Part shown: piece after piece, positions 23,513-64,000 of the stretch
How the letters are laid out: each line of letters opens with the position of its first letter
How positions within the stretch are numbered: the stretch's first letter is position 1
Assembly (NCBI GenBank): GCA_004431415.1
Contig: QPMI01000088.1
Span: forward strand, 149,947 to 213,946
DNA: 64,000 nt
From: Cyanophora paradoxa CCMP329
Taxonomy: Eukaryota > Plantae > Glaucophyta
Reading direction: 5' to 3'
The notes under the pieces: model-generated
What the model was told of the DNA's origin: nothing
Database searches by the model: none
The model's input: only the letters and a program-made list of their open reading frames with translations
Translations under genes and position numbers: made by a program

Positions 23513-25696
23513 TCAGAAGGCCGCGACGACCTCAGCTGCTGCCGCGGCCTCGATGGCGAAGGGGTCTCCCTCTGCGGCCTCGGCCTCGAGCTCGCCGGCC
23601 TCGAAGTCGGCCTCCGCGCCGAAGGCCTCGTCCAGCTCCTCGAGCTCCTGGTCCTCGGCGTCCAGCTGGGCGTACGTGCGACCAGTGCAGTCAGTGAACT
23701 CGCCGACGGCGATCTTGCCATCCTTAGCTTGTTGCCAGTGGAGTAGAACGACTTCCCGAAACGGGTCTGCAGCTCGGTACGTACGCGGACAAATTTAAAA
23801 GGGCTCAGAACAGCGCACAATAAATTTAAACGTGTGCGGGCCGCGGGAAACTGACCGTCGTACAGGCCAATGATCTTGCTGGCTTTGGCGTCGTCGACGC
23901 CCATTATCGTCTTTACGTCCTCCACGTCGAGGCCGTCACGGTCTTTGATGTAGGCGATTACTGTCGAGTCGCCGGGATTTATGCCGTACTTGAAGACTGC
24001 TTCGACGGACTTGTTCAAAAGAAACCGCAGGGCTTCACTGCGGACCGGAGGGGGTCTGGCAATGAATCGCAGGGCGATAAGCGATGCGCGATGCGGCAAT
24101 GAGCGCACGGTACGGTCTCCTGTCTGCTGGCGGACAAGACGTAAAACGGTTCACCCGAAGCTGCCTTGCATTGGGCATCGATCCGAACTTCCTCCGTCGG
24201 GCTGCGACGCGTCATCAGATTGAACTCGTGCGATCCTGAATGCTGCAGGCCACGTGTCCACGGAGGCTTACCAGGGACCACACGCCCTCGAGGTGCCTGG
24301 ACGCAGCTCTTCAGTCAGTATTCTTCAGCGGAAGCATTTGCGACGAGGGGTGGGCCGGACCTCCGTTAATGGGGTCAAGGCGGTAGAACTTGGCATCCGA
24401 GCCGTTGCAGTAATTAAGGATGGTTAAGTCGTCCATGGCGTTCATTGGGGCCACGAACAACTCGTCAACGAGGGGCGTTTCGCTGCAGTCGGACGTGGAG
24501 AACGTCTTCAGAGATGTTCCTTTTATAGATGGGCTATAGCTAAGGAAAATCTTGAGTTAGACGAACTTCAGATTGCAATCCCCGCCAGCAGCGGCTTACC
24601 AGCTGCAGAGCGTGCAGGCCTTCGTGGTACCTGCGTGAAGCTCGCTTGTCAGCTGCAGAGACACATCTATCGACGCTGGATAGAACAGAAAGCACCTCCG
24701 TTTGTGCCTTCAGCCGTGTAGAACCTGGTTCTTTCTGTACTTGCCTGTACTAGACGACGCTGGATAGAACAGAAAGCACCTCCGTTTGTGCCTTCAGCCG
24801 TGTAGAACCTGGCCCCGCTCGAGGCGGCGCATGTATCGCTCGCGAGCTGCTCAGTCAGCGTCCCCTCGACGCGCGTGCTGGAAACGAACTGTCGGCTGTC
24901 GCAGTTCTTCCAAGAGAAGGTCTTCACCGTCGTCGCCGCGGGGCTGCAAACGAATCATCACCGAGTCGGTACCGGTGCAAAAAGATATGTTGTTCGAAAT
25001 TGCTTTGATTGGAGCACGCCAGATTTCGATCGCGAGCTCACCAGGGGATGCAGGTCCTCGTGGTGCCTGCGTGAAACTCGTCGGTCAGTGCACTTTCGAC
25101 TGCATCTGCAAATTAAAGATCGCTGGGACGAAAAAGTACCTCCGTTTATGCCGTCCGCCTGGTAGAAAAGAGCGCCCGGAGCGGCGCAGGCGTCCTTGAT
25201 GGACTGATTAGTCAACGTCCCTGCAACGCGCTTGTCGAAAGCCGCCGTCCCGCTGCAGTCAGTCGAAGTGAAACTCTTCACCGTCGTCGCCGTAGGGCTG
25301 GGATCGGAACACCGGCACCGTCAGTACTAGTCTCCAACACCGAGAAAGAGGTGAAGTTGATTACCACGCCGTGCACGCCCAGGCTGCCGTAAAAGAACCG
25401 TTAGCGGGCTCACGTGCACGGCATCAGCCGCGCGCGGTCGCTCCAGCGGACGCACTTGTTCCGTCTGTGGCTTGGGGCGACTTTGACGCGGAGTAGGCGA
25501 CAACATCTGCAGAGCAGACCGCAATCTTGTCGCTGTCGCCTAGGAATCTGTCCTTGACGGTCTCAAAGTACGTGCGGTTGCTGGCCGTGTTCTGGGTGCA
25601 GTCGTCCAGAGACCGCCATCCGCTGAGATCAGAGCTGGTGGCGCCCATCGCCGCGTCGCTGCAGACTGCAGTTGCACTTTGACGAATATTTGACAC
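23513..25696 (-). CDS. Multi-exon hypothetical protein with three Cys-containing repeats and an acidic C-terminus
   Basis: Three similar units (KSFTSTDCSGT..DACAAPGALFYQADGINGG / KTFSWKNCDSR..DTCAASSGARFYTAEGTNGG / KTFSTSDCSET..NYCNGSDAKFYRLDPINGG). The last exon reads ...EAAAAAEVVAAF* with the stop at 23513. The 5' end is uncertain. Confidence 0.55.
24671..24812. repeat. 58-bp exact direct duplication
   Basis: 24671-24728 is identical to 24755-24812, with a 26-bp spacer. Confidence 0.9.
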
Positions 25697-25996
25697 TCTA
25701 GATCTTGAACTGAAATTTTGTTGAGGATGTTACGATTTTCGGGTTTTGTCGAAATTAACTCTCGACGAACATTTCTACGTTCCATGGCCAGTACCTCAGA
25801 TTAGTCTTCAGTCGTTTATTGCTTTGCCGATTCCGCAACCTCGATTCAGTTTAGACACTTCGCCTGCTTCGAATTCGACTCTCCCCTCTAGTGGTGTCTT
25901 TTGTTTCGCCCCTCCTATTGTTCTGCCACCTCCGCCTCCTACGAGGCTACGACAGCGTCTTCTACCGTGTGGCACTATAATACCGCGCTCACTTAT

Positions 25997-26061
25997 TTAC
26001 CGCGGTACCAAATTACCGCGCCGAAATTGTGACGTACCGCGGTAATTTGGTACCGCGGTAA
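25997..26061. repeat. Perfect 24-bp inverted repeat (hairpin) built from TACCGCG units
   Basis: TTACCGCGGTACCAAATTACCGCG (25997-26020) and its reverse complement (26038-26061), with a 17-nt loop. Confidence 0.9.
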
Positions 26062-27189
26062 TAACCTGCTGCTACGTTGCTCCGGATCCATATAGTGCCC
26101 CCTACAATTAACGTATAACGCCCCATACAAGCCTCCAAATATCCAATATCTGCTATTTCTAGTGCGACGTCGACTATAGCTAGTACTGTCGTTTCTTCGA
26201 ACTTTAGATCTGGATCTTCGACTGTAGTTCCTCGTGCTCGTTTTCCTTATTTTCTGCGCCCCCGTGCTCCTTGTCGTTCAAGTGTGACTAGTACTTCTGT
26301 GTCGACATCCTTGAGCTCTTCTGCTACATCTCCTCGTGCTCGTTCTTCTTATGCTCGTGATCCTTCTTGATTATGTGATTGTGATAGTCTAGAATCTCTA
26401 GATCTGCTGTATCTTTGATTTGTGATTTGTTATCCGTATTATCACTACCTACGGCTACGGGCCCGGGGGGGTTCGCCCCACCGTAGTCTCTCAAAAACAA
26501 AAGCTATAATATTATAACCGGCCATCACGGGATTCACGGGCCATCACGGCCCATCAGCCGGAGACTGCCCGGAGTCCGGAATATTAATTAATCCGGATCT
26601 CGGCCGCGGCCGCGACGGCCCGCGAGCGATCTGTACCCTTGTGGAACCATTCTATACCCTCATTGGATTCCCATTGAATTTGATTTCCCCCCCCCCCCCC
26701 CCCTTCCCGGGGTAATTACATAGCCGCGCGCGGCTGGGCCGCTGGGGGCCCCCATTAAGAAACAAAGAGAGGCCATGGCCAGTGGCCACCCTCACGCCTT
26801 GAAGCCCCAAGACCCCAAGACCACTCCTGCTCCGCAGGGACTCGCTTGTTGTAATTGAAGTTAGTGATGAGCTGGAGGAATATTAATCAAGATCAAAAGC
26901 TCACCGAGTCGACGTCACGTGCAAGCTCATGATAGTACAATTAATATTGATGATCATGAATCCTTTACAGATTCGCAGTGCATGACAAGCGACAGTTGTG
27001 CATGACAAGCGACAGTTGCAAGCAAAAATAGAATGACTTGATGAATCGGCCACCTAGGCCTGACCTATCAATAATCGAAAACGGACGTGCAGGCTATCAT
27101 ACTCGACCACTTAAGCTAGCGGGGCTTGCCAGGCCGAGGGAACCCCAAAACTAGGTGCAATAAGAGCCGAGCGTGCGGCGCGATGGGGA

Positions 27190-38982: not shown

Positions 38983-39778
38983 GACAGTTCTAATTATAAT
39001 CAGGATCATGAGCGACGCTGCGAATTGCTGGCCTTCGAATTCAGCTTTCATTAAATTAATGAGAAACCAATTCTCACACTGCAGCTGAAGCACATAATGG
39101 AATGCAAAAGACATGCACTGACAGCACTGCACATGCATCTCTCAGAGTCTAGATTGAGCTACGTATGTTTACGTTACCTAGGCCTAGGCCTACTATCTGT
39201 GCGACACGTTCAAAGACAATGCGCGATATACTGCACGGGGACTAGTACTGCGGCAGTCACGACTTGGAACGATCTATTCGAATGCGCAATCGAATCAGTA
39301 AGCATGAAACTAAATGCGAAAAAGAAAAAATCAAGCAAATGCAGAGGTTGAATCATTATTAAGGAATACATATCGATCACAAAATGGATGCATATGGAAT
39401 GACGCAAACCGCGGTCGTGATCGGACATGAGTTAATGCGTATGTACTACGGTATACGTGAAAATTAACTATATATATTGTGTATATATACGCGTACATGA
39501 GAGAGGAGGAAGGAGAGAGAGGATCCCCGGACTGAGAGGACCCGGGAAACTCGAAGGGGGCGGAAGGCTTGCATGATTACGTGAAAGATCCAATGCGAAG
39601 GTTCATACGATTGCTTTGCATTAGAAGTAAATGCGGAGGTTAATACATATGAGAAAAAAACTGGAGGCCGAGGATCTGGCGGGCGACTGCGATATTGAAA
39701 GATGATGTGCCCACGCAGTTTGCGATACATATCTACGTATATACGGCCTTGCAGCGAGGATTGTGCGCGTGGAAAGGG

Positions 39779-53450: not shown

Positions 53451-54859
53451 GGTGACAGGATCAACGCCGATAACCAGGCGCTAGGCGCCGACGTGCGCAC
53501 TGACGGCCGGCGTTTGGATCGTCGACATAAACATGAGCCGCCTGTGGTGGCGCCGGGCGCGCGCAGCATGCGCAGTCAGCGTCAGGCCTCGGTGGGCCGC
53601 GGTTGGCGACGCACCGGTTCGAAAGGTACGCGAAGCCGTCGCTGCGGATCGGCTGCCTCACGCCTGCGAGCTCCGCCTGCGAGGCGCGGCGCTTAACGGA
53701 CTTCCAAAGCAGACGAAGCGCTCTCACCCGGAAGCTGCACGGGACCGAGAACACCAGCCCATCCGGGATGACTGGCGGCATGAGCGGCGCCCGGCGCTGC
53801 CGCCGCGCAGGAAGCTGTGGCCGCTGGATGAGGTCAAGGCTAAACAGGAGGCGCCGGCCGACGCTGGGGCGCGCAGAAAGAGCGCGCGAAGACTCCCGAA
53901 GAGAGCACGCTCCAATTCGAATTCGAGCCCAAAGCAATTGCGGCCGCGCCGCGCATCGTGCTCAAACCGAAACGCCGCTAGGGTGGGGGACGATGTTGTA
54001 GAGGGGTATGCATATTGGAGATCCGGAAAGTTTTGTTTTTTGGTGAATTCCGGGAAGTTGGCGAAAAGTTCGCCGAAAACTTACCAATACGCGTACGCAT
54101 ATGCATCGATATCATGATCATGCATATGGCGCGTTTCTCACCAAATTAAAGGCCCGGCCGCCGGGCAGCCTGCAACTTGGCTGCCGCAGTACTATAGCTA
54201 TTAGCTAGTGCAGCGGCACTGCAGCCTGCACCGTGGCACGCTGCAAGTTAGCCTGCAAGCTTTTAAGTTGGCTCAGGTTGGCTGCAACTTATATAACTGT
54301 GGCCGGTAATTCACCAAAAAAAAACTTATATAAATAAGCTTCCTGCAACTTAGCCTAGTAGGCTGCAAACTGCCGCGCCACAGCGGCCTACCGGACCACT
54401 GGCTATAGCTACCAGCTGCAGGTACGGTGGCTGCAGCCTGCAGGCTAGCGCTGCATGCATATGCACCTGCACCGTGCTGCACGGCCCTGCAGGCTGCAGC
54501 CTGCAGGCGGCTGGCGGCCTGCATCATCGAGCATCATGATCAGCATTGCGGCAGCCGCTGATCATGACTCATGAGCTGCAGGCTGTTCAACGGTTGCCCA
54601 GTTGCCAAGTTGCAGGCTTGCAGCCTGGCAGGCTTGCATGCACTGCACAGCTTATATAATTATAGGCCTGCGCATGCAGGCTCCGCCGCGCGCGGCGCCA
54701 GCTATAGCTAGCTATAGCCTAGTCGCTTTAGCTGCACAGCCTGGCAGCCTGCAGCTGGATCATGGAGCTGGTCCGGATCCCGCCTGGAGGTCGCAGCCAT
54801 AGCCAACTTGCAGGCTTACGTGTATACCAGCTGCATGCGCCTGCTGCAGCGGTGCATCG

Positions 54860-55142
54860 ACACATAGTAAAATGCGGAGTTTTAACCCTCGGCTTATCTT
54901 AATTGATTTTGTTGATATATCTCGTATATTCTATTTCAATCAATCGATAATCTGTGTATATCTTATCGAATATTCAATTATTTCGATTATTTTGTATTCT
55001 TTTCGATATTTTATCGTAAATTTCTCTTATTTTCCGATTAGTCTTACTGAGTCTATCGATAATCTGTATATATTTCCGAATAATATAACTGAATCTCAAT
55101 TAGATCTTGCCTCTGGTTAAAACTCCGCATTTTACTATGTGT
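54860..55142. repeat. 283-bp module bounded by a perfect 28-bp inverted repeat (element terminus or MITE)
   Basis: ACACATAGTAAAATGCGGAGTTTTAACC (54860-54887) and GGTTAAAACTCCGCATTTTACTATGTGT (55115-55142). Confidence 0.9.
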
Positions 55143-55396
55143 GATTGGTCTAAAAGTTAATTGATTTAATCGATATTATATTCATGTACTTTCTCGATTA
55201 AATTTAATTAAATTTAATTCATTTAATCGGAAATATATCGCTAAACTCGATTAAGATCCATAAAAGATTCATTTGTTAAATAAAACAAATCGATCTCTTA
55301 TTGAATTCAATCGTAATTATACATGAAACTTATATGTTTTTATCATTGTTTTATTGAGTCTAAGGGGGGACCCTTAGGAATTTAATGAATAATTGG

Positions 55397-55487
55397 GTGT
55401 CACAGGTGTCACAGGTCCATCCCAAACTTTTGGAAATTCACTCTTTATAGGAGAAACTTTGGGATAGACCTGTGACACCTGTGACAC
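55397..55487. repeat. 30-bp inverted repeat with tandem TGTCACAGG iterons
   Basis: GTGTCACAGGTGTCACAGGTCCATCCCAAA (55397-55426) vs TTTGGGATAGACCTGTGACACCTGTGACAC (55458-55487), 1 mismatch. Confidence 0.9.
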
Positions 55488-55923
55488 ATACCATATTCAG
55501 TAAGGACCTCATATATTGTTAAAATCTCAGTGTTAGTTGGTGTAGTTGATTCAAAAAATGCATTTTATACTCTGATTCATTGTTATTTCCTGTGAAATTT
55601 GAGTCAACTCAACCCACTTAGTCAACCCTTGCATTGAATTCGTAACAAAAATCCATATACTATTACTACTTTTACGATTAATATGAGTCAACCTAGAGTC
55701 CACTTTAATATAAATATTATATAATAGGGGGAATCTTGGGGAGATGCTTATAAACATATGAATTATTGAGCCTATGATACTTACATCGTCAGGCAGGCCT
55801 CGTTAAGAGGATTCCGAATCTGTTTTTGGTTTTGTCACATGATGAGTTGGTGAAGAGATACATGCATTTTAGTGTTTTGTATGTGGTTTAATGATATGAT
55901 GTCATAATGCATGGGTTTTCGTC

Positions 55924-56022
55924 AACAGTTAAATGAACAGTTAAGTGGACACCGTTTCACGATAAACGAGTAGACACTGCCTACTCCCAACAGGTGTCCA
56001 CTTAACTGTTCACTTAATTGTT
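55924..56022. repeat. 30-bp inverted repeat with tandem AACAGTTAA iterons
   Basis: AACAGTTAAATGAACAGTTAAGTGGACACC (55924-55953) vs GGTGTCCACTTAACTGTTCACTTAATTGTT (55993-56022), 2 mismatches. An extra half-site lies near 56111. Confidence 0.88.
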
Positions 56023-56523
56023 CGCAATTTGCTTCATTGTCTTTCAATAGCTTTCCCGCATATCTTGTTTTCAATTGTTGTTGCAGTACACTATTACAAT
56101 AGTTGTCTCGTTAACTGTTCACTTATCTGTTCGCTGCGGAAAAAAGACGATGACGGACGTGTTATGTTACGAAATGATGTCATAATGACGATGCATATGT
56201 ATATGATATATATGACACACCATCGAACTCGGGAGATCATGACGATCACGGCGATATATATATGTTATGTGTTTATGATACATCATTATTACATCATTAT
56301 GATGCATCATTCCGAAATCTCGAAAAATCGATAATCGGCATCTTCAAACGCTTGTATCTCATCACCAGATTATCAAATCGCAACGTTCTGCATATCGCTG
56401 TGAAGCGCTTGAAAAGATCTACAAGACAATGTGTATATCATATGCATATATGTATATCAGTCATACATATATTTGGAAAAACGAGTTTTCGGCTAGCAAA
56501 CTAGCTAGTTTTGGTCCTCTCTC

Positions 56524-57885
56524 TTAGTGTTCTTTGAGGTTTAGGGCTGTATATGACTCCTTAGTAGTCTGAAAGTCACTATACCATCTCTGGCTATTCA
56601 CTTCTGAAAGTTTCTGTGTGCCTGCTATGGTGAGCTTTTTGAGTTCCCTATTAACTTTCCCAGCCTTCTCCTTCCTAGCCTCTATCAAAGGCTTATCTGG
56701 GACTTCATTAGCAGCTTCTATGCCTTCTCTCCTTATAGCAGCATCAACCCTAGCTTCCTCTTTAGCTTGCTCTAAGGCATCCACTGTAGGGGTTTCTAGA
56801 TATTCAACTGCATTCACAGGCAACAGCTCATGGAATGCAAACCTGTTATCTATGATCTCACCAGTGGGACTCCTTAGCTTAAACTTAAAGCCTTCCCTAC
56901 TATCAACTGTGTAAACCATCCTAGACCAATTGTTACCCTGTTTAGCAAAGGGGTTCTTCTCAACTTTCACTCTAACAAACATGCCAGGCTGCATGGTATC
57001 AAGATAAGCTATTGATTTCTTGAATCTCTCATCTTCTAATCCCACTATATACCTGTAATGCTCCTCTGTAGTTTCACCTGGCTTCATCTTAGTAGCTGAG
57101 TGAACTGTATTATTGTAATTATACTCAATATCACCTAACACATCAAAGAATCTAGCTGTGTTATTAGCTATGCAGTAGTTTGTGATCAGTCTCTTAATCT
57201 GCTTGTTAAAGGCTTCAATTCGACCTTGGCTTCTATGGTCAGCAGTTCCACTCACTTGGTGTTCTATGAATTTACTAGATAAATACTCCTGGAATATTCG
57301 ATTTTGGAATTCACTCCCAGCATCTGATTGAACCTTTACTATTGGTCTTGCCACTCTCATCTCAAGCTGTTTAAATGCAGCCAATGTAGTGAGAGCTGAT
57401 TTATCTCTTATAGGTATAATATACCCAGTTCTCAGTGTTGATTCCATTGCAGTCATAAATGTATCATAGCCATTGTTTTGTTTCTTATAAGCTGGGAAAA
57501 AGAGCAAATCAATCACATAGGTATCAAGGGGTTGCCTAATTGGGACCATGGGATCTCTCTTCCTAGATATAGCAGGTGCATTGATCTGAACAACTTCTTG
57601 TTTTTTATAGAACTCTTGCAACTGCTTATAGGATTCATCTGGTAACTCAGCTCTCATAGCTTGAAGCCCTTTGTAACCAGTCCTCACATCATAGAATCTC
57701 TTGGCAATCTTGCTAGTTTCTTTCACTGCAATAGCAACTGGGATCTCTACTGGGACAAGCTCTTTCATCTCTGATTTTTTGACAATTCGAGATTCCCCCT
57801 TTTCCTCCTTTGGAACTGTGATGGGCAGTAGGTTACCTTGCAGTTGCTCAGTGGTTCTTCTAACTATTCTTCCAGTTGCTGGCAT
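56524..57885 (-). CDS. int: RVE-family (retroviral-like, Polinton c-integrase type) DDE integrase
   Basis: 453-aa intact ORF with D (YVIDLL), D (VQSDAGSEF) and E (QGRIEAFNKQIK), then YNNTVHSATKMKP and an SH3-like VRV...NWSRMVYTV. No chromodomain evident. Confidence 0.93.
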   Translation of the reverse strand: MPATGRIVRRTTEQLQGNLLPITVPKEEKGESRIVKKSEMKELVPVEIPVAIAVKETSKIAKRFYDVRTGYKGLQAMRAELPDESYKQLQEFYKKQEVVQINAPAISRKRDPMVPIRQPLDTYVIDLLFFPAYKKQNNGYDTFMTAMESTLRTGYIIPIRDKSALTTLAAFKQLEMRVARPIVKVQSDAGSEFQNRIFQEYLSSKFIEHQVSGTADHRSQGRIEAFNKQIKRLITNYCIANNTARFFDVLGDIEYNYNNTVHSATKMKPGETTEEHYRYIVGLEDERFKKSIAYLDTMQPGMFVRVKVEKNPFAKQGNNWSRMVYTVDSREGFKFKLRSPTGEIIDNRFAFHELLPVNAVEYLETPTVDALEQAKEEARVDAAIRREGIEAANEVPDKPLIEARKEKAGKVNRELKKLTIAGTQKLSEVNSQRWYSDFQTTKESYTALNLKEH

Positions 57886-57888
57886 CTC

Positions 57889-60800
57889 TTAATTAAAAGG
57901 AACAGAATTAATACCATCTGGTAAGATGTATCTCTTTGCATCAAAGCAGTTTAGGGCAACCCTTCTACTCACAGTGTCTATTATTGTGTGATCTGCCCTT
58001 CTTTTCTGCTTTGCAGTCACAGTCTTGCTGATACCTGCAAATAAACACTGCTTAAAATCATTAAATTGGAGTTCCTCAGTTGAAGTCCCAGAGAGCTTAC
58101 TCCTCTCAATCTCAGCAGTTCTGAAACTGTAAACTTTGGCTCTGAGACCCACATACTCCAATATAGCAGAACCTGGCATCTCATTTTTGTATTTACCTGG
58201 GGTCATTCTGTTAGATCCCCCTAGGTCCAAGGCATAAGATATATTCTCTATATCTTTTTGTAAGGTCTTAGATTCGATATATAGACAAAAGGAATCAGTA
58301 TCATGGAACAGTAATTTGGCTTTGGACCATTGGGACCTTACAGTATCATAGAAGAACTGGTAATTATGCAGTTTGGCTGCATCCAAAACATAGGCTCCAA
58401 TGGCAACTGGCTTATCTAGCTTCACATGTTTTGTGTAAAACTCAAAGGCAACTGCTCTTTCGTTTATGGGGCTTGTTGATTTCACCAATGGAGAGGCTGC
58501 ATATTTCATAAACAGTTTCTCACTGTTTGCAATCTTAACCACAGATCTACCTCTGCAAGATTCAATGCATTTCCCATAGATTGAGTTATTCATGAGCTTA
58601 TAGAAATCAGCCTCGAATTTATTCACTGCTTTCCTTCTCATCTCAGTGTTCAGCTCAATATAGGGTTTCATGACAGGAGCCACAGTAAATGATAGGACCC
58701 TGTGAACTTTCTTTAATTTCACACCTTTGTCCAACAGATACTGTAGAAGAGGCTCAGAAATCACATAGTTGGTCACAGAACCAAAGGTTGCAGTTAGCTT
58801 AGGGGTCTTATCAAGCTCTTCTCCTGAAAGATCTAATAGGCTCTTTTGATATTGTGATAATTCGGCATATTCTACTATTTTCTTGTTAATAATTAGGGGG
58901 AAATCACTGTGGTCTAGATATAGCCTAATTGGGTAATCCAGATCAACTTCCAGGAAACTGGATCTGTTATCTTGTGGGTTGAATTCGGTCTCCCATCTAA
59001 AATCACCAACTGGGATTGGCTGACTCAAACAGTAGCCATACAAGTTGTTAGCATCAAACAGCATAATGTGGGAGTTTTCACCATCAGCCTCAGCATACCT
59101 ACAAGGCATTGTTGCAAAGCCACCCCTGATTCCCCTCTCAACAAATTCGTATTGCTCTACATCACTTATAAGCTCTATTTTTGCCTTGGTGGTCCTAAGC
59201 ATAGCATCCCAAGATAACCCAGGTGCAGATACATAATGAACTGGGTCCAATCCATATACTGAGTGTGAAAGCCTTCTAAAAGCCTGGAATTTGTTCATTA
59301 ACTCATCTACATCAGCAGCTCCAAAATCCATGAAATTGCTTGCATCAATGAACTTGTAAAGACCCCATTGCAATGACAGGTATTGATCAAAGTTTTTCGA
59401 AAGGATTTCGATTCGTTTTTTATCTCCCAAGCCTGCTATTTTTCTGAAAATGAATGTCCCACAGTCATCCATTTGGTCAACAACAACTGCAACTTTGGTT
59501 TGCTTTGAGATTCTCCTATGGAGATTGCAGTTTCTGCATGCAGGAGCAATGTAATGACCTGTGTGGTGGTCATGATCTCTGCATTTAAAGTTTTCCTTGG
59601 TGAACCTCTCACTGCAAAGGTAACAGTGTTTGGTAGCTCTGTAAATTGCTTTCTGCTCATCTGTGAGTTCATTCATGGGAATATTGGTGAACAGGAAATC
59701 GATCAGTTCTCTTGCTTTGGATTCCAAGCATTCAAACAGAACTCCCATTGGATCCTGCCCCTCAAATCGAAAATCTTGAACATCTTCCCCAGTGACTACT
59801 CTCAGGTTGACTGCTGAGACTTCCCTTTTGGATTTCGATGCATCAATGGGGATGCTTCTATGTTCAATCTTGCAGTAAACCACAACAGGAAGCCACACAG
59901 TTTTCCTGAGGTTTTTCAGTCCAAACTCTATGGTGGTCTCAGGTTTAGGGGTGATTCCCTTTGAGAGTCTCCAATCAATGCATCTGTTTGAGTCCACATG
60001 AGCAGTGAGTTTAGCCTCAGACCTGAATCGAGATAAGCATGTATCACAGTAGTGTAACTTTTGATCCTTGGTTTTATCAAGGGCAACTCTGAGAAGTCTT
60101 GAAAGGGACATGATTGTAATATAGTGACCATTCCCTTCATCATCATGAATGAGCATGAGATTAATCTTTTGCTTTCTGCCTGGGTTGCTGGATTGATGCA
60201 GTGGATATATAACATCTCCATCCATTCCAAAGATGTTTATGCTAATGCCTGCATTTTGAGCTTCGAATTTATCAATGATTTCAGCATCACAAGGAACAGG
60301 GAATGGGATATTGTCGAAATTGAGAGCCAAAGGATTGTATGTGGTTGGTGAGTATTTCCATTTGCGATATTGTGTAAGCTCACTTCTCTTGTGGGAATTT
60401 ACATCTTTCCTATGGATCCATGCCAAAATGGCATTTTCGAAGCAAGAATCATCAATATTTCGAATATTCACTGTGGCTTTCTTAGCTGCAATTGATTCTG
60501 GTGTTTTAACATAGCAGCCACCAGTTGGGGCATAACTCATAATAGCAACTCTTAGCATTTCGATTCTCTCCAATCGATAGCTATCAACCACATTCATCTG
60601 CTCCTGACACATTTGGGCTGCTTTATTCAGCTCAGTTCGAATATTTCTCGATTTGGTTAATACAAAATAATCGCTGTAAATGTATTTCGATATCCAAACC
60701 TGTGGATTGCTGACTTTTACGAACTTGCAGATAAACGATAAGCGAACTTTGATTGCCCTGAATTGATCTAGACTGTCTCTTAAACGTTTTGGTAGAGAGG

Positions 60801-61134
60801 TTGCAATTCTATCTAAATATTCAATCACATCAACAACAACTTCCCTTCTGGCTCTGTAAGTGAGCCAGCGATATAATTCATTCATTGCTGTTCCATCTTC
60901 TGCCTCTGGTTCTATTTGCCTCAGGCGATCGAGTTCATCAAGAGTCTCAACTTTGTCATAGAGGTTATTGGCTTTTCTGGTTAATTTTGCTAAAGTGGGT
61001 CTGCCCCTTGAAATAAATCCGATTTCCCGGTCATATTCAGCCTCTGTAATTTCATGGGCTGCATACAGTGTTCCCAGTAATCCCATGAGTTCCCATTTCT
61101 TTTCTCTAATAAGTCTGTTGCTAATTCGGGGCAT
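57889..61134 (-). CDS. polB: Protein-primed family B DNA polymerase (Polinton type) with C2H2 finger and EndoVII-like insert; exonuclease degenerate
   Basis: 1081-aa intact ORF with NIRNIDDSCF, HYITIMSLSRL, CDTC..LTAH, CYLC..CRDHDHHTGHY..CRNCNL, YGLDPVHYVSAPGLSWDAM, GIRGG, FDANNLYG, KLMNNSIYGK, HDTDSF, GLRAKVY and FDAKRY. Confidence 0.95.
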   Translation of the reverse strand: MPRISNRLIREKKWELMGLLGTLYAAHEITEAEYDREIGFISRGRPTLAKLTRKANNLYDKVETLDELDRLRQIEPEAEDGTAMNELYRWLTYRARREVVVDVIEYLDRIATSLPKRLRDSLDQFRAIKVRLSFICKFVKVSNPQVWISKYIYSDYFVLTKSRNIRTELNKAAQMCQEQMNVVDSYRLERIEMLRVAIMSYAPTGGCYVKTPESIAAKKATVNIRNIDDSCFENAILAWIHRKDVNSHKRSELTQYRKWKYSPTTYNPLALNFDNIPFPVPCDAEIIDKFEAQNAGISINIFGMDGDVIYPLHQSSNPGRKQKINLMLIHDDEGNGHYITIMSLSRLLRVALDKTKDQKLHYCDTCLSRFRSEAKLTAHVDSNRCIDWRLSKGITPKPETTIEFGLKNLRKTVWLPVVVYCKIEHRSIPIDASKSKREVSAVNLRVVTGEDVQDFRFEGQDPMGVLFECLESKARELIDFLFTNIPMNELTDEQKAIYRATKHCYLCSERFTKENFKCRDHDHHTGHYIAPACRNCNLHRRISKQTKVAVVVDQMDDCGTFIFRKIAGLGDKKRIEILSKNFDQYLSLQWGLYKFIDASNFMDFGAADVDELMNKFQAFRRLSHSVYGLDPVHYVSAPGLSWDAMLRTTKAKIELISDVEQYEFVERGIRGGFATMPCRYAEADGENSHIMLFDANNLYGYCLSQPIPVGDFRWETEFNPQDNRSSFLEVDLDYPIRLYLDHSDFPLIINKKIVEYAELSQYQKSLLDLSGEELDKTPKLTATFGSVTNYVISEPLLQYLLDKGVKLKKVHRVLSFTVAPVMKPYIELNTEMRRKAVNKFEADFYKLMNNSIYGKCIESCRGRSVVKIANSEKLFMKYAASPLVKSTSPINERAVAFEFYTKHVKLDKPVAIGAYVLDAAKLHNYQFFYDTVRSQWSKAKLLFHDTDSFCLYIESKTLQKDIENISYALDLGGSNRMTPGKYKNEMPGSAILEYVGLRAKVYSFRTAEIERSKLSGTSTEELQFNDFKQCLFAGISKTVTAKQKRRADHTIIDTVSRRVALNCFDAKRYILPDGINSVPFN

Positions 61135-61190
61135 TGTTCCTAACTTGTTCCTACTAAAAGGGAGGTTTTAAATGGGGATATTCCGAACGC

Positions 61191-61241
61191 AAAAATTTGA
61201 TGAAAACTACTTAAAGAAATATCTTCTATATATATAAAAGG
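61191..61241 (+). promoter_or_regulatory. Element promoter motif, copy 1
   Basis: AAAAATTTGA...AAACTACTTAAAGAAATATCTTCTATATATATAAAAGG, immediately upstream of ATG 61245. Confidence 0.7.
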
Positions 61242-61244
61242 ACA

Positions 61245-62062
61245 ATGGCAGAGAACAAAGCAACATCTTCTCTGGAACGCTTGAAGGCTACATTAATGTT
61301 TCTTTGTGGATCTAATAACTTTAAAGACTTTGTCGCTTTGGGGAGAAGCAAATATATGAACTCTTTGTATTTGAAACTTGCAAAGTATGATTTGACTCAC
61401 GAAAGCCTTCCTCCACACTCAAACAGCTGTGCTTGCAAGCATCATATTGAAGAACAATGCTACATCTTGCATGTGGATAAAAGATTGTGGTTCTTGTTGG
61501 CAACTGCTGCATTAAACGATTTATGCCAAATGGTGCAAGGAGGGAAGATATATGCAAGAAATGCGGAGATCGACATAAAAACCGTAAGGATAATTTCTGC
61601 AATAAGTGCAGGATTATCATAAAGGAGGAGGAATTGGAAAGAAAAAAGCAAATCCAGAAAGAAGCAGAGGAGCGAAAGAAACAACTTGAATTAGAAGAAA
61701 GAGAGCGAAGGCAGAGAGAATTAGAACAAGAAAGAGCAAGGAATAGACATGCAGTTAATCTTTTCCTGATTTGGTGCAACCAGTTCATTCCAAAAATGGA
61801 TAATCTTCGCAGAGATGATATAGAGAGGTTCAGAGAGGGTAGATCTGCATTGATTGAAATGTATGCAGAACTCAGTACAACAAACACATTGGTTGCTGGG
61901 TTTCAGGTGCCTTTTCTTAAAAAAGATATCGCAAAAGGATTAGATTGCAGATGGAATAAGGACAAGAAAACATGGGAGACCTTGGAAATCGAACCATTTG
62001 TAGCATTGCTAGGTAAGCATTTCAAACTTATGTATATTGAGAGATTTGGACAGAGAGGTTAA
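61245..62062 (+). pseudogene. Cys-rich Zn-binding protein with coiled coil and C-terminal DUF5710-like domain (one frameshift near 61485)
   Basis: Frame 1 ...CACKHHIEEQCYI joins frame 2 VGNCCIKRF..CKKC..FCNKC, then an E/K/R coil and VPFLKKDIAKGLDCRWNKDKKTW. The frameshift may be a sequencing error. Confidence 0.65.
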
Positions 62063-62067
62063 AGAAC

Positions 62068-62102
62068 AAAAAATGATTTAAAGATTCTCTATATATATTA
62101 AG
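62068..62102 (+). promoter_or_regulatory. Element promoter motif, copy 2
   Basis: AAAAAATGATTTAAAGATTCTCTATATATATTAAG, upstream of ATG 62118. Confidence 0.65.
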
Positions 62103-62117
62103 AGAGACAGAGGAAAA

Positions 62118-62371
62118 ATGCCACTCAGTGAAGCCCAGAAGAGAGCTATGAAGAGGTACCAGCAAACTGAAAAAGGTAAGGCTCAAATCAAAAAGTTTAA
62201 CGAAAAAATAGCCACACAGCTAAGAGATCTATATCAAACCGATGATACCTATAGAGCCATGAAATAGCAAGTTCATGTCAGCGAAAGTATGCAGCCAATG
62301 CAGTCTGCTTTGTCAAATATTTGTATGATGTCCCTTACTCAAACAGAGGGAGAAAATCGAAACATGTCTAA
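62118..62371 (+). CDS. Small basic protein (stop at 62267 as written, or ~62371 if a 1-nt deletion is corrected)
   Basis: MPLSEAQKRAMKRYQQTEKGKAQIKK..., preceded by the shared promoter motif. Confidence 0.5.
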
Positions 62372-62506
62372 ATTATTTTTCCCAGCATATTACTAGGCTG
62401 GGGATATGCTGTTTATTCGCTGAAATACCAATTCATCCTTTTTGTATCTGAACCACTCGATATATCATGTGGATAAATTTCGTAGGGATACTTTCTCGAT
62501 TTCCAA

Positions 62507-62575
62507 CAAAAAATGATTGGGGGACCCAAACTACTTAAAGAAAAATCTTCTATATATATAAAGGGACCCCCAATC
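62507..62575 (+). promoter_or_regulatory. Element promoter motif, copy 3
   Basis: AAAAAATGA...AAACTACTTAAAGAAAAATCTTCTATATATATAAAGGG, upstream of ATG 62583. Confidence 0.7.
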
Positions 62576-62582
62576 GCTGAAA

Positions 62583-64000
62583 ATGAACGCCAAACAGACC
62601 AAGTTAATCAAATCGCTCGCTAACTGGCTTCGTTCTGATGAGGAACTCGCCAAAAACATGATTATCCCAGTGAAACCTGACAGCAAAGACCCAGTTTTCA
62701 AGCATAAGGGAGGTGCTTGGTCTGGGAAAAGTATGAGGAAGCGCTGGCAACTAATCAGTATGTATCTTGGGGCATTCTGCTCTCAGACAACATGATGGTT
62801 ATTGACTTTGATGATGAGGAGGACTTTGAGAAATTCCGAGATATGTTTCCTGATGACTTTGATGCCAATCAGCCCATGGCAAAAACTAAAAAAGGCTATC
62901 ATGTCTACTTCAAACGACCTGAGGAGTTCACTAAACTCAAAATTACCGATAAGGCTCCAGGCTTTAAAGGCTTTGAAAAGGTTGACCTGAAACAATCACT
63001 GGAACTGGAACTTCTGGATTAATTAATGTTTGTCCCAGTGTCAACAAGACCTGGGTAATTGCTCCATGGGATGATACCTGTGATTTCAATGAGCCTACTG
63101 ATGAGTTTAAAAGTGGATTGCAGAGAACTATATCTATAAGAGTGAGTATACTGCTAGTGCTAGCTCAATGATGAACTGGAAAAGAGTATTCTTAAAGAGC
63201 TGGTGGATATGGGCTTTATGCATCCAATATAATCTCTAAAACTGAACTTGGCTTTAGCTTTGATGCTGCTAATAAGGGACTCAATTGCCCATGCTGCAAT
63301 GGTTCCCATGAATCGAATAACTGGTATGTTATGAAAGCCAAAGGAGAAGATAAAAAGTATATTGTGTCCAGCTACAGTGGCAATTGCAAAAAACGATTTA
63401 TCTTCATTGGAATGCAATCTGATATCTTCAATCTCATTGATAAATCCGCTGGTTCTGGAGGCGCTCATTATGATGTCAGTCTTGTGTGCAAAGAGGTACT
63501 ACAACATACTTGGAGATACTCCAAAAAGTCATGGTTCAAACTCAATACTGATACTGGGATTTGGGAGCATGATGACACAAACCAAAGATTTACCTAGACA
63601 TAAGTTGCCTTGTTGTCCCTCAATACCTTGGCAGGGCTGTGCATTATAGCCAAAGAGCTTTGAAGGATGAAGAGAATAGAACAGCTTTCGAAGAGAAATC
63701 GAAAACATTAATTTCTATTGCAAAAATCTTAAACAATCAGGATATCGCAAATCCCTTCTGACTGATCTGCTCCTCTGCTGAATGATGATGAATTCTATGA
63801 AAAGATTGATACAGTTCCATATGTAATTGGATTCGATAATGGTGTATTTGATCTGACAACTATGACTTTCAGAAAGGGGAAACTGGAAGATATGGTGAGC
63901 AAGAGTGTGGGTTATGATTATACTGAGAATGTAGACCCAAGAAAGTAGACCATCTCAATCAGATTTATAGAGAGATTGTAGATGATCCAGCAGAGCGAAA
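62583..64000 (+). pseudogene. PrimPol (AEP superfamily) - Zn finger - D5_N primase-helicase, frameshifted, partial
   Basis: Reassembled frames give IIPVKPDSKDP, WGILL..VIDFDD, TKKGYHVYF, LINVCPS, CPCCNGSHESN and D5_N-like IGFDNGVFDLTTMTFRKGKLEDMVSKSVGYDY. There are several 1-nt frameshifts (~62722, ~62992, ~63110 and later). The helicase core is expected beyond 64000. Confidence 0.85.

What the first reader, a model, noticed from the sequence alone, without database searches (positions are those of the whole stretch)
54860..64000. Endogenous Polinton/virophage-like element with two replication modules (pPolB plus PrimPol-D5 helicase) and an RVE integrase
Seen: an AT-rich, intron-less island with int and polB leftward, Zn-finger/DUF5710, a small ORF and primase-helicase rightward, and a hairpin-stacked left end. 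Known: classic Polintons pair pPolB with RVE integrase. Many PLVs use a primase-helicase instead, and mavirus-type virophages combine pPolB, integrase and an SF3 helicase. Inference: a probably undescribed lineage of integrating DNA virus or self-synthesising transposon in an algal host. It may replicate from internal primase-dependent origins rather than, or in addition to, protein priming.
Basis: partly seen in the sequence, partly recalled or inferred. Interest (0 to 1): 0.85.

Follow-up and report, generated by a model that had tools for sequence, protein, structure and literature searches.

The report
Algal provirus with proofreading-dead polymerase
This is one end of a multi-copy virus-like element in a GC-rich eukaryote's genome, likely an alga, whose DNA polymerase has lost its proofreading residues but kept its copying residues, and it likely works together with the neighbouring primase-helicase, a further case of a trade-off already described in related viruses.

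Summary
The anatomy is real: an AT-rich element starts at 54,860 with a fold-back end, then RVE integrase, pPolB, a DUF5710 gene, a small ORF and a PrimPol-D5 gene that runs off the window before its ATPase. Short-read contigs show roughly tens of copies; the frameshifts are mostly one-base run-length differences, probably assembly errors. New here: this Polinton-type pPolB has lost its exonuclease motifs and about 90 residues, family-wide, while polymerase motifs stay intact and variation between copies is mostly synonymous. A 47%-identical sister shares the loss and a shortened protein-priming loop. Mavirus pPolB is only distantly related, so this looks like an independent, early-stage case of the published 'lose exonuclease, gain helicase' pattern. 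Best reading: one replisome, helicase unwinding and PolB extending (0.55); whether priming moved from terminal protein to primase or hairpin is about even. Capsid genes, right end and target duplication lie outside the window. The scan had no look-alike of this DNA, but noted sister viruses with hairpin ends and replicase swaps in this genome.

The parts
54860..55142 (.). Terminal fold-back: 28-bp perfect arms (54,860-54,887 and 55,115-55,142) around an AT-rich loop; likely left end of the element
   Evidence: X16 contig starts at 54,860 and X8 flank contig enters 28 bases
55397..55487 (.). Mirrored block of a 9-10-base word (two copies each way), iteron-like; candidate origin or helicase-binding site (inferred)
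   Evidence: (I2, 34 nt, 94%)
55924..56131 (.). Second mirrored block with a different word; candidate origin (inferred)
   Evidence: (I3, I5, D4)
56524..57885 (-). RVE-type integrase, 453 aa, DDE triad D126/D188/E224 intact; short-read contigs differ by one base near the C-terminus
   Evidence: nearest relative P0121 77%
57889..61134 (-). pPolB, 1081 aa: terminal-protein fold, vOTU with C231/H337, C2H2 and HNH-like Zn modules, dead and partly deleted exonuclease, intact polymerase motifs A, B, C
60529..60906 (-). Terminal-protein (PRD1-like, little-finger fold) domain, residues 77-202; linking loop at residues 183-186 shortened and without Gly/Pro
   Evidence: (Z 9.6, rmsd 2.5, 105 aligned)
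59299..59877 (-). Exonuclease remnant: ExoI Asp replaced by Lys422, ExoII motif lost, about 90 residues deleted up to ExoIII (deletion point near 59,325)
   Evidence: contigs cross the deletion point without gaps
61204..61243 (+). 40-base promoter-like repeat; copies also at 62,067-62,106 (63%) and 62,528-62,567 (95%), each just before a rightward gene; depth drops right after the first copy
   Evidence: (D2)
61245..62062 (+). Cys/His-rich, coiled-coil and DUF5710 gene, in two frames in the window; variable between copies
   Evidence: short-read contigs over 61,226-61,525 have 1 gap and 0 substitutions
62118..62267 (+). Small basic helical ORF, function inferred as DNA binding only from composition
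   Evidence: no informative Pfam or PHROG hit
62515..62575 (.). Inverted repeat enclosing the promoter-like repeat of the primase gene
   Evidence: I9
62583..64000 (+). PrimPol (DxD and His motifs present), Cys-rich linker and D5_N; in pieces in the window; SF3 ATPase expected beyond the window
   Evidence: 7 one-base run-length differences against short-read contigs

Best explanation
This is the left end of a multi-copy integrated Polinton-like element whose polymerase has lost its proofreading residues while keeping its polymerase residues, and which likely replicates with one shared machine in which the D5-type helicase would unwind the DNA and the polymerase would extend behind it. Shown: gene content, dead exonuclease across the family, intact polymerase, integrase and protease motifs, mostly synonymous variation in polB. 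Inferred: the RVE integrase inserts the linear genome; after excision or infection the primase-helicase loads at an end or at one of the mirrored repeat blocks; PolB elongates without proofreading. Priming is unresolved, about even between retained protein priming through the short Asp-Ser-Tyr loop and priming by the PrimPol domain or the terminal fold-back. Capsid genes are expected beyond the window but were not seen.
For: Exonuclease residues are invariant in 120 of 120 first-search homologues but lost here (ExoI Asp, ExoII His-Asn-Tyr), and the ExoII-ExoIII span is 11 residues against 100-416. In a larger alignment 288 of 296 keep all five residues; 25 of the 296 were preselected on the ExoII motif. 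The deletion point is crossed without gaps by contigs of X2, X8 and X15. 40 of 54 listed polB variant sites are synonymous against 21% (all changes) or 34% (transitions) expected. Sister P0124 (47% identity) has the same deletion and loop, so the state is old. PrimPol motifs are present and the breaks look like assembly errors: 12 of 12 listed indels change the length of a base run, and one X8 contig over 63,554-63,878 has 3 gaps and 0 substitutions. Primase depth is about 0.6 of polB depth in two runs. Control: of 27 viral contigs scanned that carry the same PolB type, 25 show the ExoII motif (2 are partial) and none has a Pfam primase or D5 hit. Krupovic et al. describe exonuclease loss accompanied by helicase gain in mavirus and PLVs.
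Against: No contig links polB to the primase gene, so linkage in other copies is not shown. Depth falls about sevenfold just after 61,243 and primase depth is below polB depth, so some polB copies have other neighbours. The ATPase was not seen. No genomic context could be fetched for the other exonuclease-dead proteins, so the helicase link rests on this one family. In the control, 2 of 27 contigs hold unannotated P-loop ORFs that could be helicases, and many contigs are partial. AEP-S3H is a stand-alone replicase in many PLVs. OmPLV has a helicase with a complete exonuclease, so the trade-off is not a rule. The variant rows are the best-supported subset (40 of 383 and 40 of 115 shown) and include one stop seen only in a low-depth contig of X15.
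Confidence: 0.55

Rival explanations
1. Replicase turnover: polB-integrase and PrimPol-D5 are two independent replicases that sit together in part of the family after recombination at the shared promoter repeat; each could copy the genome alone, and one will be lost.
For: Published reading for dual-replicase elements ('transient states in ongoing replacement'). Depth step at 61,243 and lower primase depth. Earlier scan notes report swapped helicases and polymerases among sister viruses in this genome (not tested).
Against: The exonuclease loss is old (shared at 47% identity) while the polymerase stays under constraint, which fits a long-standing partner better than a passing neighbour. About 0.6 of polB depth is matched by this primase.
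Confidence: 0.3
2. A capsid-less, transpoviron-like polB-integrase unit lies next to, or inside, a separate AEP-S3H element; the island is a tandem of two elements.
For: Barth et al. describe such tandem arrangements, one in a contig whose accession prefix belongs to a Cyanophora assembly. No capsid gene in the window. polB and integrase are adjacent on one strand.
Against: No inverted copy of the left end and no bracketing repeat near 61,135-61,245. No PolB-S1H fusion. polB and the rightward genes are divergent around a promoter repeat shared by all three rightward genes. The polB-integrase tandem is also seen in contigs with packaging ATPase or capsid genes.
Confidence: 0.1
3. The island, or the polB-primase arrangement, is an assembly chimera of repeats.
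For: High-copy repeat; indel errors concentrated toward the window end; junction bridged by only 28 element bases; no contig spans the region.
Against: All 30 of 30 bins are covered in three DNA runs; unique flank contigs run into the element with no difference; no joints in 59,150-61,300.
Confidence: 0.05

Closest known systems
Halocafeteria seosinensis endogenous virophages and PLVs (bioRxiv 10.64898/2026.07.28.741278; passages and section 7 read, figures and supplements not seen)
   Same: [quoted passage not shown]
   Different: There the palindromes go mostly with non-pPolB replicases and the pairing is read as transient; the state of the exonuclease is not mentioned in what I read. Capsid type here is unknown.
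Mavirus-type virophages / pMVRE group 1 (PMC11161782, PMC13215967; passages read)
   Same: pPolB with TP and active vOTU, exonuclease lost, separate SF3 helicase gene, RVE integrase.
   Different: Mavirus pPolB is about 617 aa and only rank 38 at 10% identity in the fold search. Here the enzyme is a 1081-aa Polinton-type pPolB that still has half the exonuclease fold and Zn/HNH inserts, and the helicase gene carries a PrimPol domain.
Alpha-adintovirus-type (Polinton) pPolB elements, incl. those noted in Cyanophora paradoxa contigs (PMC8502044; passages and section 3.4 read)
   Same: PolB type (30-40% identity to mollusc, insect and coral Polinton proteins; adintovirus and bidnavirus proteins top the fold search; relatives sit with PLA2 and DJR genes or Sputnik-type capsids); polB next to integrase.
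   Different: Those polymerases keep the exonuclease (Jeong et al. state this for all taxon groups) and the scanned contigs had no primase-D5 gene. The Alpha label is indirect: no named reference was aligned.
Multi-replicase polisuviruses (Barth, Ha, Aylward, bioRxiv 10.64898/2026.10.13.758929; parts 1-4 of 5 read, figures not seen)
   Same: Single elements with a second replicase; pPolB paired with DDE integrase, AEP-SF3 as extra.
   Different: The word exonuclease does not occur in the text; their model is independent mobility of modules, with bracketing repeats not seen here.
Tlr1-like pPolB-S1H of PLVs and transpovirons (PMC11161782; passages read)
   Same: TP-vOTU-polymerase without exonuclease, tied to a helicase.
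   Different: There the helicase is SF1 and fused, and the exonuclease is gone entirely.

Membership tests
Polinton/Maverick (Polintoviricetes) | Protein-primed family B polymerase with TP and vOTU domains | tested here: met
   phi29 polymerase top match; TP fold matches Y-family little finger (top 9 of 9 rows); C231/H337 invariant in 120 of 120 homologues and kept
Polinton/Maverick (Polintoviricetes) | Conserved exonuclease motifs I-III in pPolB | tested here: not met
   conserved in Polintons per Jeong et al.
Polinton/Maverick (Polintoviricetes) | Linking Ser/Tyr between helix 2 and strand 4 of TP with nearby Gly/Pro | tested here: inconclusive
   Ser185 and Tyr186 lie in that loop, but the loop is 4-6 residues shorter, the conserved Ser column is a gap, and there is no Gly/Pro (271 of 283 have one)
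Polinton/Maverick (Polintoviricetes) | RVE integrase with DDE triad | tested here: met
Polinton/Maverick (Polintoviricetes) | Terminal inverted repeats and target-site duplication | not testable with these tools
   Right end outside the window; no genome held. Left end starts ACAC, not the AG recalled for Polintons (recalled, no call)
Polinton/Maverick (Polintoviricetes) | DJR major capsid, penton, A32 ATPase, maturation protease of Polinton type | not testable with these tools
   None in the window; rest of element not available
Polinton-like viruses (PLV, broad sense) | Divergent DJR capsid module | not testable with these tools
   Outside the window. Bellas et al. list 366 MCP genes in two clusters (272 and 94) for the species named by earlier notes
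Polinton-like viruses (PLV, broad sense) | AEP-SF3 helicase replication gene | tested here: inconclusive
   Prim-Pol and D5_N domains found; ATPase beyond the window
Mavirus-type virophage | Short TP-vOTU-palm pPolB of the mavirus clade | tested here: not met
   1081 aa, Polinton-type; mavirus pPolB 10% identity, rank 38
Mavirus-type virophage | Virophage capsid, ATPase and protease | not testable with these tools
   Outside the window
Transpoviron / Tlr1 | pPolB-S1H fusion | tested here: not met
   PolB ends after the polymerase domain; no helicase hit
Transpoviron | No capsid module | not testable with these tools
   Only about 9 kb of the element is in the window

The most novel reading that the evidence does not exclude
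A Polinton-type protein-primed polymerase has been converted into an elongation-only enzyme: proofreading and protein priming are both lost, and a PrimPol-D5 helicase or the terminal fold-back supplies the primer. That would be a living intermediate between protein-primed Polinton replication and the primase-helicase-driven replication of larger DNA viruses.
Probability: 0.28. Interest if true: 0.75.

Novelty: new variant of a known kind. Interest (0 to 1): 0.45.

Why it matters
The published idea that these viruses trade proofreading for a helicase rests on lineages where the exonuclease is almost or wholly gone. This family would be an independent case in a different polymerase lineage, caught with half the domain still present and many close proofreading-competent relatives as controls, so the idea becomes directly testable in vitro. 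If priming has also moved to the primase or hairpin, it shows how a protein-primed polymerase can switch to ordinary primers.

Tried and rejected
No whole genome is held, so the contig could not be extended. Integrase scan of viral contigs: 10 pattern matches, none confirmed; metagenome scan gave 11 distant loci at 23-35%. Search with the 133-aa primase linker for longer proteins: 0 of 130 candidates; Atlas look-up gave only weak hits, one PriCT_2 cluster at 0.79. No loci for P0178 or P0220. No RNA holder listed; runs guessed as RNA cover parts of the element at low depth and were not used as evidence of expression. Rfam: 0 matches. Sigma-70 scan: 12 sites against 11.0 expected, irrelevant. 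One clade of all exonuclease-dead proteins: weak (0.79 in FastTree with 295 sequences; SH-aLRT 8 in a 40-sequence IQ-TREE subset; one search corrects support labels shifted by re-rooting), and deletion ends differ, so one or two losses remain open. Grouping with thrips proteins (0.99 in FastTree) was not recovered in the subset and is not claimed. P0140 (sponge gene model) lacks exonuclease pieces but falls elsewhere and may be a mis-predicted gene. The idea that 54,860-55,142 is a separate MITE was rejected: no target duplication flanks it and an X16 contig runs 753 bases from 54,860 into the element. Real decay of the primase gene in this copy is not excluded (contigs drop rare variants) but gaps without substitutions argue for errors. 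Earlier-finding look-ups by sequence found no look-alike. Paper searches found no description of an exonuclease-dead Polinton-type pPolB paired with AEP-S3H; bioRxiv figures and supplements, which I could not see, may show this family.
Full report
Observation. The window is 65-80% GC host DNA up to about 54,000; at 54,860 GC drops to 0.22-0.30 and stays near 0.39. The island holds an integrase (56,524-57,885, minus), a 1081-aa PolB (57,889-61,134, minus), a Cys-rich/DUF5710 gene, a small basic ORF and a PrimPol-D5 gene on the plus strand. Only DNA_pol_B_2 and D5_N pass Pfam's cut-offs; rve, Prim-Pol and DUF5710 are below them but agree with motifs (DDE triad invariant in 4 of 4; DxD and His primase motifs visible). 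The SF3 ATPase would begin just past 64,000 and was not seen. The first 283 bases fold back on 28-bp perfect arms (z -10.7), followed by two mirrored blocks of short words.

Is it real and how many copies. No genome is held. Contigs of three DNA runs cover 30 of 30 bins; unique flank contigs have depth 30-111 and no differences, while element positions are tens of times deeper. From depths at single positions, polB is about 70 times (X2) or 105 times (X8) the flank, the primase gene 40 or 63 times, and the 5' part of the DUF5710 gene 10 or 14 times (8, 5 and 3 positions per run that I picked from the tables). The tool warns that such depth is no copy number, and GC bias likely inflates it, so I claim only tens of copies and a primase-to-polB ratio near 0.6. 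The junction is crossed by an X8 contig with 28 element bases, short of the 31-letter bar; an X16 contig starts exactly at 54,860. No contig links polB and primase.

Frameshifts. The primase gene is in at least six pieces in the window. All 12 indels listed (24 more not shown) change the length of a base run, 7 of them inside this gene, and an X8 contig over 63,554-63,878 differs by 3 gaps and no substitution. That pattern fits long-read consensus error better than decay; rare variants are dropped from contigs, so decay of this copy is not excluded.

The polymerase. Best hits of the first search were 32-40% identical, among them mollusc, insect and coral Polinton proteins. The model (pLDDT 88) matches phi29 polymerase over residues 413-1064 and the Y-family little-finger domain over 77-202, the fold that Krupovic et al. 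assign to the terminal protein (passages). vOTU Cys231 and His337 and polymerase motifs A, B and C are kept. The exonuclease is not: ExoI Asp is Lys, the ExoII His-Asn...Tyr-Asp motif is gone, and the stretch to ExoIII is 11 residues against 100-416 in 120 of 120 homologues, removing the ExoIII Tyr. In 296 aligned sequences 288 keep all five residues, 2 differ at one, and 6 are dead: the window, P0124, P0140, P0178, P0220, P0273 (25 of the 296 were preselected on ExoII). Contigs of X2, X8 and X15 cross the deletion point without gaps, so it is a family trait. Of 54 listed variant sites in polB, 40 are synonymous against 21-34% expected (best-supported rows only, one low-depth stop included). 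P0124, 47% identical and from an unnamed record, shares the deletion and the short loop and is the sister with full support; a single clade with P0178/P0220 is weakly supported. Mavirus pPolB is far away, so this loss looks independent of the mavirus one, though no tree with mavirus was built.

Priming. In homologues the loop before the last TP strand carries a conserved Ser, mostly in a Ser-Gly-Trp context (224 of 283; 271 of 283 have Gly or Pro). Here and in P0124 the loop is 4-6 residues shorter, has no Gly or Pro, and reads Asp-Ser-Tyr. Conservation of that triplet, the intact fold and the active-looking protease favour retained protein priming; the lost column, the fold-back end and the primase motifs favour a switch. 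P0178 and P0220 keep the usual loop. I rate this about even.

Control for the helicase link. A scan of viral contigs gave 31 loci with this PolB type. I scanned ORFs of 180 aa or more from 27 of them (L032, L039, L040, L042 left out): 25 show the ExoII motif, 2 are partial there, and none has a Pfam primase or D5 hit; 2 hold unannotated P-loop ORFs that could be helicases. They carry Polinton-type, other, or Sputnik-type capsids, so this polymerase type moves among capsid modules and says nothing on the capsid here. The pattern fits the published trade-off but rests on one exonuclease-dead family with context, and OmPLV is a counter-example (passages).

Prior art. pPolB with D5 primase-helicase, RVE and terminal palindromes: Halocafeteria preprint (section 7). 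Multi-replicase genomes, one from a Cyanophora assembly by its accession prefix: Barth et al. (parts 1-4 of 5). Alpha-adintovirus-like PolB plus integrase in Cyanophora contigs: Starrett et al. (section 3.4; supplement search found nothing, file cut). 366 capsid genes in that species: Bellas et al. (supplement rows). Replication module switches are common in all PLV groups (passages). Exonuclease loss with helicase gain: Krupovic et al. (passages) and the pMVRE paper (passages). Polinton pPolBs keep exonuclease motifs: Jeong et al. (passages). Four searches found no report of this polymerase state; figures and bioRxiv supplements were not visible. The host name comes from earlier scan notes and was not tested.

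Verdict. A real, multi-copy polisuvirus-type endogenous element. It works like mavirus in pairing a proofreading-free pPolB with a separate SF3-type helicase gene and RVE integrase, but fails the mavirus polymerase test and the Polinton exonuclease test; class membership needs the capsid genes. New variant of a known kind; interest 0.45; the full switch of priming has probability about 0.28 and would deserve 0.75.

Noticed in passing
window 54,000-54,859: The flank just left of the element is 45-65% GC, rich in short CTGCAG-type repeats and inverted repeats, and has high summed depth at 54,202-54,552 although unique contigs cross it: a second repeat family at the insertion site.
   Followed up: partly
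window 61,204-61,243; 62,067-62,106; 62,528-62,567: A 40-base repeat precedes each rightward gene and depth steps down right after the first copy; it may be both promoter and crossover point for cassette exchange. Its TCTA core in AT-rich context recalls mavirus/CroV late promoters (recalled, no call).
   Followed up: partly
window 55,883-56,196 and 61,255-61,431: Short-read contigs show copies that skip 286 bases in the terminal region and one that skips 175 bases in the DUF5710 gene.
   Followed up: no
window 60,070-60,207 and 60,770: Loose ends at several polB positions point to more diverged polB subfamilies in the same runs.
   Followed up: no
P0178, P0220, P0273: Exonuclease-dead polymerases of the same type with different deletion ends and the usual priming loop; no context found.
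   Followed up: partly
L029, L036, L041: Viral contigs join this Polinton-type PolB to Sputnik-type capsid genes (hybrid virophages).
   Followed up: no
L001:310-4390: An integrase relative lies directly behind a 990-aa protein with SF1 helicase hits.
   Followed up: no
L035:6207-7595: An ORF with phospholipase A2-like and ADP-ribosyltransferase domain hits in a viral contig.
   Followed up: no
window 25,500-26,500 and 39,000-39,750: Two other lower-GC patches (0.42-0.51) with no similarity to the element.
   Followed up: partly
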